A program made the position numbers and the translations under genes. A stretch of DNA of 64,000 nt. Source: the human T2T-CHM13v2.0 reference genome, Homo sapiens. How positions within the stretch are numbered: position 1 is the stretch's first letter; every line of letters starts with the position of its first letter. Below the pieces are notes generated by a model, which was not told the DNA's origin, searched no databases, and worked only from the letters and a program-made list of their open reading frames with translations. Positions 49,072 to 59,324 of the stretch are shown here, piece by piece. The DNA lies in assembly GCF_009914755.1 (NCBI RefSeq), contig NC_060925.1; one strand, given 5' to 3'.

Positions 49072-50108
49072 TCAGGTATGAATTTTCTCAGGTACATTGA
49101 GGTCTGAGCAGTGGTTAAAGGTTTTGCCACATTCTTCAGATTTGTAGCATTTCTCTCTTGTATGAATTCTCTTATGGTTTGAAAGGCTTGAACAAGATAT
49201 AAAGACTTTACCACATTCTTCACATTTATAGGGCTTCTCTCCAGTATGAATTCTTTTATGTTCAGTAAGGTGTGAGCACCGGTTAAAAGCTTTGCCACAT
49301 TCTTCACATTTGTAGGGTTTCTCTCCAGTATGAATTCTCTTATGTTTAGTGAGGTTTGAACACTGGTTAAAAGCTTTGCCACATTCATCACATTTGTAGG
49401 GTTTCTCTCCAGTATGAATTCTTTTATGTAGAGTTAGGTATGAGAACCAGTTAAAGGCTTTGCCACATTCTTCACATTTATGGGGTTTCTGTCCAGTGTG
49501 AATTTTCTTATGTTTGGCATGGTTTGAACTGTGGTTAAAAGCTTTGCCACATTCTTCACATTTATAGAGTTTCTTTCCAGTATGAATTATAATGTGATTA
49601 GAAAGGCTTGTGAAGGATTTAAAGACTTTTCCACATTCTTTACATTTGTAATGTTTCTCTTCATTATGAATTGTCTCATGTTCAAGAAAGCATGAGCAGT
49701 GCCTAAAGGCTTTCCCACATTGTTTACACTTGTAGGATTTCTCTGCAGTGTGGATTCTCTGAAGTGGAGTTAGAACTGAGGATATGTAAAAGGAATTGTC
49801 ACATTCTTTACAGTTGGAAGATATCTCTCCAGTATGTCTTATCTTATGTCTATTTAGATTTGACGATTTACTAAAGACTTTCACACATTTATTAAATTGA
49901 AAGATTTTGGTATGTGTAGTTGATAAAGATTGGTTAAGTCCATTACAACATTCTTTCTGCACCTTAGATTCACCCACACTTTCCCAATCTTTCTTTAATT
50001 GTAAATTCTCAATGCCATAGCTTCCATATCTTCTCAGTATCACTTTTTGAAATGAATCTTTTATACCATGCTCTGGCAAGAGGTCTTGGGTGAAATGAGA
50101 AGAAACAG
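49072..50108 (-). CDS. ZNF731P: Zinc-finger exon of the ZNF731P-like locus (7 intact C2H2 fingers, 3 degenerate)
   Basis: ttttcag|CT GTT TCT TCT CAT TTC ACC CAA GAC CTC TTG in frame with ORF 49072-50079. Confidence 0.75.
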
Positions 50109-50894
50109 CTGAAAAAAATTAAAATAACATATTATCCAACTTACTGGACTTAGATGAATATAATTTAAAAAGCTAATATATGAAATTATACCAAACACAT
50201 TAGCGAGATAGCATAATAAAATACTACAGGCCCTGATTTTTTGATGAACATAATATAACAAAAATATACTGAACAAAATGCCTTTGTGAGAACTCTAGAA
50301 ACCATATTAAAAGCCATAGACAAGGGGAAGGAAAGCTTGTTACATTTACCCACCACAACTCTTTCTTCTCCTAAACACAGCATAATGACTTCAGGAATAA
50401 ACTCCCAACTCCTAGCTTCTCCTTCAATAGAGACAGTAGTGGCACATATGCCCATACTTTTGATGGAATTTCCAAAGACTAGTTTCTGTCTCCCATGACA
50501 CAAAGTGCTGAAAGGAATAGTGGTAGAATAGAACCAACCTTTAATTCAAAGGTTGGTTCTGCTGAGACCAAAGGTAAATAATTGTTATAGCAGCAGAGAG
50601 GCTGCAGTACTACAGACAGACAACAGATTTAGCAAATAATTGATTAGAGAAGAAGAAAGAAAGAAGAAACAAGGGTAAACCTCTTTAACTGGAAATTAAA
50701 CACAAAATTCCAGAGAACATACATCCTGAGAATAGGTTTGAGAGGCTCATGGAAACCCTAGCCCAAGTCACTTGGTATCAGATTATCCAGGACAAAGCCA
50801 TTTTATAAAGATTTTGACAGATGGCTTTTAGTGCCCAAATCTCAACCAAAGATTGCAACATATACATTAGGGTAACATGGCTCAATCAAAAAAA

Positions 50895-50938
50895 AAATAA
50901 ATAAATAAATAAATAAATAAATAAATAAATAAATAAAT
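50895..50938. repeat. (TAAA)n microsatellite
   Basis: Direct read. Confidence 0.9.
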
Positions 50939-51569
50939 ATCCAGAAATCAACCCTAAAGAAATGGAGATGTATAAGTTACCTGAAAAATCTGAGATAACC
51001 ATTTGAATAATGCCCAATGAGTAAAACAGGAAAACAGACATGAAATTAAGAAAATGAGAAACCCTGACAAATTCTCAAATGTAAAAAAAAAAAATTAAGA
51101 AGCTCAACACATTTCAAATAGGATAAACACAAACAGACACATAACAAGATACATTATAAGCAGTTTCAAAAAATTACAGATGAGAAGAGAATCTCAAAAA
51201 CAGAAAGGGAAAAGCAATGTGTCATCTATAAGCATGCTTCTATGAGATTACCAGAGCATAGTTGTTTCATATACCATCATTCTAGTACTATAGAATTTTA
51301 TTTTTGTGTATGTGATCACGGGGCACACAGAGAAAATAGGAAACCTGCCCTACTTGAAGAAACAAATCTCCAGAAACTGACCCTTAAAAAAGGGAGATTT
51401 TTGCATTTTTTTGACAAAGAATTTAAAGTAATCATCTTAAACATGTTCAATGACCAAAAGTAGAACACATATAGATAACTCTACAAAATCAGGTTGGGCA
51501 TGGTGACAAGAGCATTATGGTTTACATAAAGTAAAATACTCTCCTTGTTGTTCATTTAAAAATAAATCC

Positions 51570-51880
51570 TGGCTATGTACAGAAGCTCACACCTGGAATT
51601 CCAGCATTTTGGAAGGCTGAGGTGGGAGAACTGCTTGAGACCGAGTTCAAGACCAGCTTGAGTAACACGGTGAGACTGTCTCTACAATTTTTTTTTTTAA
51701 ATTAGCCAGGCATGGTGGTATATGCCTATAGTCCCAGCTACTTAGAAGGCTGAGGTGGAAGGATCACTTGAGCTGAGGAGTTTGAAGCTACAGTGAGCTA
51801 TGATCATACCGCTACACACCACCAGCCTGGATGAGAGAGTGAAACCCTGTTTATAAAAAAAAAAAAAACAAAAAAAAAAA
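51570..51880 (+). mobile_element. AluJ-like
   Basis: Diverged dimer with A-tail. Confidence 0.9.
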
Positions 51881-51962
51881 AACAGAAAACCATGCATGAG
51901 GAAAATAATACATCAACAAAGAGATTTTAAAAAAAAAAAACCTATAAAAAAGAACCCAACTA

Positions 51963-52277
51963 AGCTTGGTGTGGTGGCTCACGCCTGTAATCCCAGCACT
52001 TTGGGAGGTTGAGGCAGGTGAATTACGAGGTCAGGAGGTCGAGACCAGCCTGGCCAACATGGTGAAACCCCGTCTCTACTAAAAATACAAAAAATTAGCC
52101 GGGCGTAATGGCGGGTACCTGTAATCTCAGCTACTCAGGAGGATGAGGCAGGAGAATTGCTTGAACCTGGGATGCAGAGGTTGCAGTGAGCCAAGATCAC
52201 TCCACTGCACTCCAGCCTGGGCAACAGAGCAAGACTCTGCCCCCAACAAAAAAAAAAAAAAAAAAAAAAAAAAAAAA
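51963..52277 (+). mobile_element. Alu (AluS-like) with TSD
   Basis: TSD aacccaacta; long A-tail. Confidence 0.95.
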
Positions 52278-57491: not shown

Positions 57492-57838
57492 TGATACGGT
57501 TTGGCTGTGCCCCCACCCAAATCTCAACTTAAATTGCATCTCCCAGAATTCCCACGTGCTGTGGGAGGGACCCAGAGGGAGGTAATTGAATCATGGGGGC
57601 CAGTCTTTCCCGTGCTATTCTCATGATAGTAAATAAGTCTCATGGGATCTGATGGCTTTCTCAAGGGTTTCTGCTGTTGCTTCTTCCTCATTTTCTCTTG
57701 CTGCTGCCATGTATTTAGCCTCCCGCCATGATTCTGAGGCCTCCCCCGCCATGTGGAAATAGTTAAGTCCAGTTAAACCTCTTTTTCTTCCCAGTCTCAG
57801 GTACGTCTTTGTTAGCAGTGTGAAAACTGACTAATACA
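57492..57838 (+). mobile_element. THE1A-like solo LTR
   Basis: tgatacggtttggctgtg...ccagaattcccacgtg...actaataca. Confidence 0.9.
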
Positions 57839-58490
57839 GAAGTGAACAGATACACTAAACCACACTACAGTTGAGAATTTGGGGCAGAGTTTAAATTACC
57901 AGTCTCTGTTTATACTAAAACAATAAATGTTTAATAAAAAATAACAGTTTCTTACATTTAGGGAGATGTCTAGTGTTCTTATAAAATTACTGAGTATAAA
58001 TTTCTATAGAATGACATTTAAAACCTCTATAGAATGGGAAATCACAAAGCAGAAAACATGTAACATCTGTTCTGGTGTTCCTGGGATTCTGAGCCAAATC
58101 CCACTGCTCTCACACGCCTTAGACATAATGCAAAAAGGGAACTTAAAAAATAGCTTAACAAACAGTTTCTCAAAAATACACAGATATTCCTGTGTCCCCA
58201 AAGCAATGGAAGAACAATCAGATCATACGGTCTGTTCCAAGCTATGAAAAAGCCTTTGGCTGTCACTGTCATCTTGAAGAAAGATCACTGAAGGGAAAGT
58301 AGAGCCGTAAAAGAATTTCAGAGCATGGGACAGAAGGTGTTCCTATGTGACAGCAAGGGAAAGAAACTCAGGCTTCTCAGAAACCATTTCCATTGGAGCA
58401 GAGCTTCTCAAACCACATTTTAAGGTCTGGCTTCCGCCTTGATCTTTGAACCTCTCATCTGTATCATCCACTTCATTTACTCCCACCTAC

Positions 58491-58586
58491 CTGGGTGTCT
58501 GGCTACTGTCTCATGTTTCTTCACATTCCAGGGCTCATTCCTTTGCTCTAGACAGGTGATCAGGTCTGGCTTAGAGACAGCAATAC
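58491..58586 (-). CDS. ZNF731P: KRAB-B exon (96 nt, [32 protein letters not shown])
   Basis: aaatag|GT...CCA G|gtagg; open frame. Confidence 0.8.
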
Positions 58587-58739
58587 CTATTTTTAAAAAA
58601 AAATTCAAAGGACCTGTTTTATTTTTTAAGAAGTAGCATGACTCTTGCTTGGATTCTCTAATTACCAACCTAGTACTGTGCTCAGTAGAGAAATAAGGAA
58701 ATAGAAGATTCTAAAAATTAATCCCAAAATACTGTTTCC

Positions 58740-58903
58740 TGACAGAACCTTTAGAATATTTGGAAAGTATTTTAAATTTGTGAGGCCCTAGCTTCACTAC
58801 CTAATACTACTGAATCAAGAATGACAGAACCTTTAGAATATTTGGGAAGTATTTTAAATTTGTGAGTCCCTAGCTTCACTACCTAATACCACTGAATCAA
58901 GAA
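58740..58903. repeat. 82-bp tandem duplication
   Basis: tgacagaacctttagaatatttgg at 58740 and 58822. Confidence 0.92.
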
Positions 58904-59197
58904 TCGGTGGTGGTAACTGGATTTTTCAGGGTGTGTGCAACACTATTTTATGCTACTAAATTTCTGGAATTGCCACCACTCATCTGAGCACGCACATCAC
59001 CTCAAGAAAGGAAGGTTAGTGTCAAGATAAAATACCTTCAAGATTATTTTGTTCTACACCAACAAATCCCCAAGTTTTCCTTGAAAGCAGAAATCTGAAA
59101 TTCATTCGTGCAAAGCAGAATTCCCAAAAATATTCTACAATGAAGGAAATAAAATCCTTAGTGTAAAATAGAAATTATGCATTGAAGCGATCCTCAC

Positions 59198-59324
59198 CCA
59201 GGGAGACCAGGTTTCTGTAGTTTTCTAACATCACGTCCCTATACAGATTCTGCTGAGCAGGGTCCAGATAGCTCCACTCCTCCGGAGAGAATTCTATGGC
59301 CACATCCCTGAATATCAACAGTCC
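59198..59324 (-). CDS. ZNF731P: KRAB-A exon (127 nt, [42 protein letters not shown])
   Basis: ttgccag|GGA...CTG G|gtgag; open frame. Confidence 0.82.

What the first reader, a model, noticed from the sequence alone, without database searches (positions are those of the whole stretch)
49072..59324. Supposed ZNF pseudogene has a fully open KRAB-A + KRAB-B + 7-finger reading frame
Seen: exons of 127+96+1037 = 1260 nt join at canonical AG/GT sites into 419 codons plus stop, with no disruption. The KRAB-A residues linked to KAP1 binding (DV, EEW, MLENY) are intact and seven C2H2 fingers are complete. Known: in this family exon 1 supplies only the ATG, and it lies beyond the window. Inference: this may be an unrecognised primate KRAB-ZNF repressor of ~420 aa, or a very recent or polymorphic loss confined to exon 1.
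Basis: partly seen in the sequence, partly recalled or inferred. Interest (0 to 1): 0.8.

Follow-up and report, generated by a model that had tools for sequence, protein, structure and literature searches.

The report
ZNF731P looks like an intact gene
A human locus filed as a zinc-finger pseudogene has a complete four-exon, 420-codon KRAB zinc-finger reading frame with its start codon and promoter intact, and published tumour peptide data fit its translation, so it is probably an overlooked gene and not a dead one.

Summary
On the minus strand, exons 59198-59324, 58491-58586 and 49072-50108 join at AG/GT sites into 419 codons plus a stop. They encode a strong KRAB-A box and seven complete C2H2 fingers.

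The missing exon 1 lies 5.8 kb past the window end. A conserved ATG|GTGAGT sits in a retained CpG island, colinear with the promoters of ZNF695 and a chr19 paralogue. The full frame is 420 aa.

The locus is old. Its nearest paralogue is only 80% identical. Terminal-branch dN/dS is 0.63 (0.40-0.99), like its open paralogues; a pseudogene control branch gives 1.13. Neutral drift along the whole branch would leave the frame intact with P about 3e-13.

GENCODE knows the locus as AL390728.4, a transcribed unprocessed pseudogene, and the 2023 KZFP census does not class it as protein-coding. Two immunopeptidomics papers report the HLA-I peptides YLDPAQQNL and [10 protein letters not shown]. The 9-mer is encoded once in the genome, in this KRAB-A exon and frame.

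Caveats: the stop is derived and trims the finger array. A loss of function within roughly the last 17-33 Myr, or a human polymorphism, cannot be excluded. No primate orthologues could be examined.

The parts
59198..59324 (-). Exon 2: KRAB-A box, 127 nt, phase 0 start
   Evidence: AG/GT bounds. Pfam PF01352 87.2 bits, E 5.4e-25. The same exon bounds are kept in ZNF695 and the chr19 paralogue.
59244..59270 (-). Codons for the published HLA-I peptide YLDPAQQNL; the 10-mer [10 protein letters not shown] runs on to 59241
   Evidence: The back-translated pattern, also in an I/L-tolerant form, occurs once in the 3.1-Gb genome, here. Peptides reported in PMC11837991 (supplement) and PMC13040755.
58491..58586 (-). 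Exon 3: KRAB-B, 96 nt
   Evidence: AG/GT bounds. Aligns to the KRAB-B exons of the chr19 paralogue (83% identity) and ZNF695 (79%) with the same junctions. No Pfam hit for the 31 aa alone.
49072..50108 (-). Exon 4: linker plus 10 finger units (F3-F9 complete, F1/F2/F10 degenerate) and TGA
   Evidence: Pfam zf-C2H2 129 bits, zf-H2C2_2 216.9 bits. No gaps in this locus's row over the 1032 aligned nt against 25 paralogues.
48990..49071 (-). Post-stop remnant: half a finger in frame (EKSYKCKKCGKAFNTCSCLTQDQSSY*), then no finger homology
   Evidence: translation. Only the first 44-63 nt after the stop still align to paralogue fingers.
59325..64000 (-). In-window part of intron 1. The intron runs on to window coordinate 69821, outside the window. 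Exon 1 lies OUTSIDE the window: start codon at window coordinates 69822-69824 (L009:5822-5824; G000 C1:246643822-246643824), followed by a GT donor, within a promoter CpG island at about 69301-70250 (L009:5301-6250).
   Evidence...GGGAAATG|GTGAGT is conserved with ZNF695 and the chr19 paralogue. Coordinates, absence of upstream ATGs within 340 nt and the 1263-nt CDS are. CpG island; GC 0.62, 52 CpG, o/e 0.57 against 0.24 in intron 1; ZNF695 0.72, chr19 paralogue 0.64. Intron colinear with the chr19 paralogue.
61098..61191 (-). MIR3916, same strand, inside intron 1 (59325-69821)
   Evidence: Position from the annotation supplied with the finding. Intron bounds.
49436..50111 (-). RefSeq 'ZNF731P' pseudogene feature: covers only the 5' two thirds of exon 4
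   Evidence: Annotation supplied with the finding, compared.

Best explanation
ZNF731P (GENCODE AL390728.4) is a structurally intact, transcribed, four-exon KRAB zinc-finger gene. Exon 1 supplies ATG only and sits in a CpG-island promoter 10.5 kb upstream. Exons 2 and 3 encode KRAB-A and KRAB-B. Exon 4 encodes a linker and seven working C2H2 fingers, giving 420 aa. It is an old, single-copy offshoot of the ZNF695 / chr19p12 ZNF91-like family, and it was kept under purifying selection for most or all of its separate history. By inference from the family, the protein binds DNA through fingers F3-F9, recruits TRIM28/KAP1 through its near-consensus KRAB box, and represses its targets, most likely transposable elements. 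The pseudogene label most likely reflects the derived stop, which shortens the array relative to paralogues, and not a disabling lesion. Shown here: the anatomy, exon 1, the constraint signal, and the uniqueness of the peptide-coding site. Taken from papers: transcription and the HLA-I peptides. Inferred: the splicing pattern, a stable protein, KAP1 binding and repression.
For: The ORF and junctions are intact. Exon 1 ATG|GTGAGT is conserved in 3 of 3 aligned promoters and no upstream ATG lies within 340 nt. The CpG island is retained. Exon bounds are shared with ZNF695 and the chr19 paralogue. The nearest paralogue is 80% identical, so the frame is not open merely because the copy is young. 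The locus shows zero indels over 1032 nt against 25 paralogues, whereas colinear intron 1 shows 0.108 gap openings per mismatch. All 28 zinc ligands of F3-F9 are intact. Terminal-branch omega is 0.63 (95% bootstrap 0.40-0.99; 2.2% of 500 bootstraps reach 1), against 0.62 and 0.73 for the open paralogues L028 and ZNF695 and 1.13 (0.77-1.72) for a pseudogene control branch; this locus is below the control in 97.4% of bootstraps. P(intact) under whole-branch neutrality is about 3e-13. Expression: TCGA liver cancer (group means 2.46 against 5.39) and blood RNA-seq. HLA-I peptides YLDPAQQNL (ovarian tumour T1) and [10 protein letters not shown] (STS-26T cells, one of 19 of 123 candidates that passed PepQuery2) are reported. 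The 9-mer is encoded once in the genome, here and in frame. The stop-to-stop genomic frame around KRAB-A has no ATG ahead of the peptide, so an upstream spliced start is needed.
Against: The stop is derived and trims the array. F10 just before it has lost two zinc ligands (SCPH) while 25 of 25 paralogues keep it, and F2 has lost one, so the 3' end shows decay. The upper bound of omega touches 1. A frameshifted paralogue (L043) shows a similar terminal omega (0.45 unweighted, 0.58-0.66 weighted), so omega cannot exclude a recent death. An intact frame only bounds a neutral phase to d <= 0.017, about 17-33 Myr. KRAB-exon dN/dS is uninformative (0.35 to 1.05 with only 4-9 synonymous differences). 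HLA-I ligands can come from unstable or spurious translation, both samples are cancers, and 22 other genomic sites lie within one base of encoding the 9-mer. RefSeq, GENCODE and the 2023 KZFP census all treat the locus as a pseudogene (and the annotation supplied). No orthologue, population, Ribo-seq or junction data could be examined.
Confidence: 0.6

Rival explanations
1. It is a recently dead or dying unprocessed pseudogene. The gene was functional for most of its history, lost its role within the ape or human lineage (perhaps when the array was truncated), and has not yet picked up a frame-breaking lesion. Its RNA is still made, and its occasional translation products are sampled by HLA-I.
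For: The stop is derived and F10 has lost two ligands next to it. The upper bound of omega is 0.99. A neutral phase of up to about 17-33 Myr is compatible with an intact frame. The broken copy L043 shows a similar omega. Curated annotation calls the locus a pseudogene.
Against: Start codon, all six splice dinucleotides, the CpG island and 28 of 28 ligands of F3-F9 are intact. The median waiting time to a first disabling hit is only about 4-8 Myr. Peptides were seen in two independent data sets.
Confidence: 0.25
2. It is a polymorphic pseudogene. The frame is intact in CHM13 but disrupted in GRCh38 or many other haplotypes, and that is why curators called it a pseudogene.
For: Only one haplotype was examined here. 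The RefSeq feature covers just part of exon 4, which suggests an old, partial curation.
Against: The GRCh38-mapped peptide coordinates show only that the KRAB-A stretch is encoded there too. A derived stop relative to the parent family is a sufficient reason for the label. No direct evidence of any disrupted allele was found.
Confidence: 0.1
3. It is a non-coding transcription unit kept as the host of MIR3916 or as a lncRNA, and the open frame is incidental.
For: MIR3916 lies in intron 1 on the same strand. Papers treat AL390728.4 as a lncRNA. One paper says miR-3916 has no annotated host gene.
Against: Selection on a host transcript does not explain codon-level constraint, retained zinc ligands, or the absence of indels over 1032 nt.
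Confidence: 0.05

Closest known systems
ZNF695 (chr1q44, about 160 kb away; loci L003/L011/L030)
   Same: Same cluster (chr1.2 in the 2023 census) and same strand. Same four-exon plan with an ATG-only exon 1 in a homologous CpG island, and the same exon junctions. KRAB-A exon 85.6% identical, ZNF exon 78%.
   Different: ZNF695 is annotated as protein-coding with a ChIP profile, and its finger matches continue about 575 nt beyond the point where this locus stops. This locus has its own finger contact residues, a derived stop, and no annotated protein. That L030 is ZNF695 rests on its position (inside the ZNF670-ZNF695 span; spacing to ZNF124 agrees with Table S1) and on recall of the protein's N-terminus.
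chr19p12 ZNF91-like KZFP family (for example the paralogues at C19:22.99 Mb and C19:20.14-20.18 Mb)
   Same: These are the best DNA matches for exon 4 (76-80%) and KRAB-A (81%). Intron 1 is colinear over about 4.6 kb with the 20.16-Mb paralogue. F1 is degenerate in all 26 sequences compared.
   Different: The locus sits on chr1q44 and forms one of three long basal branches of the tree (0.15 substitutions per site). Its array is shorter, with 7 working fingers.
GENCODE AL390728.4 / ENSG00000227671 (transcribed_unprocessed_pseudogene) and RefSeq ZNF731P
   Same: It is the same locus. The census row hg19 chr1:247353204-247363489 (-) maps onto 49072-59324 to within about 100 nt when anchored on the ZNF124 row.
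   Different: Those records treat it as non-coding. The full 420-codon frame, the exon-1 ATG and the constraint shown here do not appear in any paper the searches reached.

Membership tests
KRAB zinc-finger protein (KZFP) gene | N-terminal KRAB-A box | tested here: met
   Pfam PF01352, 87.2 bits against a cut-off of 20.4, E 5.4e-25, profile positions 2-41 of 42. DV, EEW and MLENY are present. That these residues matter for KAP1 binding is recalled, not tested.
KRAB zinc-finger protein (KZFP) gene | Tandem C2H2 fingers with TGEKP-type linkers | tested here: met
   Seven consecutive CCHH units at 28-residue spacing. zf-C2H2 129 bits, zf-H2C2_2 216.9 bits.
KRAB zinc-finger protein (KZFP) gene | Family exon plan: ATG-only exon 1, KRAB-A, KRAB-B, single finger exon, all in phase | tested here: met
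   AG/GT at all junctions, 1263 nt = 420 codons + stop. The same junctions are present in two paralogues. Actual splicing was not observed.
KRAB zinc-finger protein (KZFP) gene | The product is translated | tested here: inconclusive
   Two published HLA-I peptides map uniquely to the KRAB-A frame. No tryptic or Ribo-seq data were reachable.
KRAB zinc-finger protein (KZFP) gene | TRIM28/KAP1 recruitment and repression | not testable with these tools
   Needs co-IP and reporter assays.
Unprocessed pseudogene | Disabling lesion: frameshift, internal stop, or lost start or splice site | tested here: not met
   None in the 420 codons, the 6 splice dinucleotides or the ATG. The only candidate is the derived terminal stop, which trims the array.
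Unprocessed pseudogene | Neutral evolution (dN/dS about 1, with indels accumulating) | tested here: not met
   Omega 0.63 (0.40-0.99) against 1.13 for the pseudogene control branch. Zero indels in 1032 nt. This holds for the branch as a whole; a recent neutral phase is not excluded.
Unprocessed pseudogene | Decayed promoter | tested here: not met
   CpG o/e 0.57 over 950 bp against 0.24 in intron 1; paralogue promoters 0.64 and 0.72.

The most novel reading that the evidence does not exclude
ZNF731P is a live human KZFP that the 378-member census and the ChIP-exo screens built on it left out. It is an old, single-copy lineage with its own seven-finger specificity. It also hosts MIR3916 in its first intron. 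If so, the peptides now reported as 'cryptic non-coding' or 'intergenic' tumour antigens are ordinary products of a normal gene.
Probability: 0.5. Interest if true: 0.55.

Novelty: new member of a known kind. Interest (0 to 1): 0.5.

Why it matters
If true, the human KZFP repertoire has one more member, and its genomic targets have not been profiled. A RefSeq/GENCODE biotype would need changing. MIR3916 would gain a host gene. An HLA-I peptide reported as a non-coding, tumour-relevant antigen would instead come from a gene with a normal promoter, which bears on any claim of tumour specificity. More broadly, pseudogene labels given because an array is shorter than the parent's can hide intact KZFP genes.

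Tried and rejected
1. Counting substitutions branch by branch from reconstructed ancestors was not available. I used pairwise Nei-Gojobori distances fitted to the ML tree by least squares instead. This gives wider intervals and no site-by-site picture of what changed on this branch.

2. Unweighted NG86 gave omega 0.43. I set that aside as too low, because the same method gave the pseudogene control only 0.78. With the observed ts/tv (1.29) the control is about 1.1 and this locus 0.63.

3. Orthologue search by protein. The whole exon was swamped by finger repeats. For the unique linker (residues 1-125), the best hit among 189-602 aa proteins was 61% identical (8 hits among 25 candidates), and among longer proteins 37% (1 hit among 46 candidates). 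No human or great-ape KZFP appeared even for known family members, so the library seems not to hold them and the negative says nothing about orthologues.

4. KRAB-exon dN/dS had too few differences to be useful.

5. Comparing decay before and after the stop failed because only 44-63 nt after the stop still align.

7. Pfam found nothing in the 31-aa KRAB-B piece alone.

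Full report
OBSERVATION. KRAB-A is 59198-59324 (127 nt), KRAB-B is 58491-58586 (96 nt) and the finger exon is 49072-50108 (1037 nt including TGA). Each is bounded by AG and GT. Joined by script they make 1260 nt, 419 codons and a stop, with no internal stop. The KRAB-A translation matches Pfam KRAB at 87.2 bits (E 5.4e-25), and the last exon matches the C2H2 models strongly. Seven consecutive finger units (F3-F9) carry all four zinc ligands. F1, F2 and F10 are degenerate (FCHH, CCLH, SCPH).

EXON 1. The whole assembly is held as G000, so I fetched 20 kb to the right of the window. 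A CpG island lies at window coordinates about 69.3-70.2 kb. It is colinear with the CpG islands upstream of two paralogues: the chr1 gene about 160 kb away (ZNF695 by position) and a chr19 gene at 20.16 Mb. In a three-way alignment all three share ...AAATG|GTGAGT, along with CCAAT and GC boxes further upstream. In this locus the ATG is at window 69822-69824 (L009:5822-5824), 5.8 kb beyond the window. It has a GT donor, A at -3, and no upstream ATG within 340 nt. After splicing, G follows the ATG. The full frame is therefore 1263 nt = 420 aa + stop, with introns of 10,497, 611 and 8,382 nt. The island keeps its CpGs: o/e 0.57 over 950 bp, against 0.24 in intron 1 and 0.72 and 0.64 in the two paralogue promoters. 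The KRAB-A and KRAB-B junctions sit at the same places in both paralogues. MIR3916 lies in intron 1 on the same strand.

AGE AND CONSTRAINT. No close copy exists. The best non-self matches are 80% (finger exon) and 81% (KRAB-A region). Twenty-five paralogous finger exons are 76.0-79.6% identical. Intron 1 is still colinear with the chr19 paralogue over 4,607 aligned columns, with 21.7% mismatches and 0.108 gap openings per mismatch. This fits an old segmental copy, not a retrocopy.

In a 26-sequence alignment this locus has no gap over 1032 nt. In the ML tree it is one of three long basal branches: 0.150 substitutions per site, against 0.156 for L028 and 0.190 for L030 (ZNF695).

Ancestral reconstruction was not available. 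I therefore fitted pairwise dN and dS to the tree. Unweighted Nei-Gojobori gave a terminal omega of 0.43 (0.28-0.71). That method also put a pseudogene control at only 0.78: the internal branch leading to two stop-bearing pericentromeric copies, L040 and L041. With sites weighted by the observed ts/tv (1.29; R = 1.3 used), the control is 1.13 (0.77-1.72). This locus is then 0.63 (0.40-0.99; 2.2% of 500 bootstraps at or above 1), L028 is 0.62 and ZNF695 is 0.73. This locus falls below the control in 97.4% of bootstraps.

If the whole branch had been neutral, about 29 disabling events would be expected, giving P(intact) of about 3e-13. This uses the stop-creating fraction computed from the sequence (0.044 per substitution), the intron-derived indel rate, and an assumed 80% of indels being frameshifting.

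LIMITS OF THAT EVIDENCE. The stop is derived. All 21 paralogues (of 25) that are open through the aligned region read on at that codon, G in 20 and R in 1. Half a finger still follows in frame, after which finger homology ends. F10, just upstream of the stop, has lost two ligands, whereas all 25 paralogues keep it. A frameshifted paralogue (L043) has a terminal omega much like this locus, so omega does not exclude a recent death. An intact frame bounds a neutral phase only to d <= 0.017. That is about 17-33 Myr at recalled rates of 1.0-0.5e-9 per site per year, with a median waiting time of 4-8 Myr. KRAB-exon dN/dS is uninformative.

WHAT IS IN PRINT.
- 'ZNF731P' occurs in 3 papers (passages read). 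It appears as the gene nearest a GWAS signal, as a blood RNA-seq gene, and in a TCGA liver-cancer expression table with group means 2.46 against 5.39.
- 'ZNF731' as a whole word occurs in none.
- The 2023 KZFP census (PMC10547255; abstract, passages and supplement passages read) found 467 KRAB+ZNF pairs, 378 of them predicted to be full-length. Its Table S1 lists hg19 chr1:247353204-247363489 (-) as AL390728.4, transcribed_unprocessed_pseudogene, cluster chr1.2, with no age. Anchored on the ZNF124 row, this is the present locus to within about 100 nt.
- 'AL390728.4' occurs in 6 papers. Two were read in passages and four were seen only in the listing. One uses it as a prognostic 'lncRNA'.
- The other, an ovarian-cancer immunopeptidomics study (PMC11837991), lists in its supplement the HLA-I peptide YLDPAQQNL from tumour T1. 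It assigns the peptide to AL390728.4 transcripts ENST00000606173.1 and ENST00000421406.1 at GRCh38 chr1:247200112-247200139, and its main text names AL390728.4 among transcripts whose peptides raised cytotoxic T-cell responses. The PSM-level FDR was 3%.
- A second study (PMC13040755) lists [10 protein letters not shown] among the 19 of 123 candidates from STS-26T cells that passed PepQuery2, labelled 'intergene'.

Both peptides read straight out of the KRAB-A exon in the predicted frame (...[17 protein letters not shown]...). The back-translated 9-mer pattern, also in I/L-tolerant form, occurs once in the 3.1-Gb assembly, at this exon. Twenty-two other sites are one base away, so a variant in another KRAB gene is a remote alternative. 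The stop-to-stop genomic frame around the exon has no ATG ahead of the peptide, which fits initiation in the spliced exon 1. HLA-I ligands do not prove a stable protein. No paper found by these searches says that the locus has a complete KZFP reading frame. Supplements of other immunopeptidome and Ribo-seq catalogues were not searchable and may hold more.

Protein-library searches for orthologues were uninformative. No human or great-ape family member appeared at all, so absence there means nothing. No primate genome, other human haplotype, RNA junction, Ribo-seq or tryptic data could be examined.

VERDICT. This is most likely an intact, expressed KZFP gene of 420 aa that curation filed as a pseudogene, probably because its array is shorter than its relatives' (confidence about 0.6). 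The main rival is a recently inactivated gene whose frame has not yet broken (about 0.25). Polymorphic loss (about 0.1) and a purely non-coding role (about 0.05) are less likely. It is a new member of a very well known kind: useful for annotation and for interpreting 'cryptic' tumour peptides, but not a new mechanism.

Noticed in passing
61098-61191 (-), inside intron 1 (59325-69821): MIR3916 lies on the same strand within the first intron of this transcription unit, so the ZNF731P/AL390728.4 primary transcript is its likely host. A myeloma small-RNA paper says its stage-associated miRNAs, miR-3916 among them, are not located in an annotated host gene. The surrounding intron segment (60882-61444) still aligns at 70.6% to the chr19 paralogue's intron.
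   Followed up: partly
L010:5025-6025 (window about 79025-80025, outside the window): A second CpG island lies about 9 kb upstream of exon 1 (GC 0.61-0.75, o/e 0.54-0.77). Next to it, a 330-bp stretch is 90% identical, in inverted orientation, to sequence upstream of ZNF695 (79946-80275 against z695up 16938-16619). Its nature is unknown.
   Followed up: no
PMC13040755 table row for [10 protein letters not shown]: The coordinates printed there (chr1:247201961-247201931, 'intergene') are about 1.8 kb from the GRCh38 site given for the nested 9-mer in PMC11837991 (247200112-247200139). The T2T genome encodes the 9-mer at only one place. The discrepancy is unexplained.
   Followed up: partly
L040 (C21:11.44 Mb), L041 (C2:132.54 Mb) and similar hits on C13, C18, C14, C22, C9: Pericentromeric and acrocentric copies of a related KZFP unit carry 2-3 in-frame stops. 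Their shared stem branch gives omega about 1.1, which served as the neutral control.
   Followed up: partly
49436-50111: The RefSeq ZNF731P feature covers only the first two thirds of the finger exon plus 3 intronic bases. It omits both KRAB exons and fingers F7-F10.
   Followed up: yes
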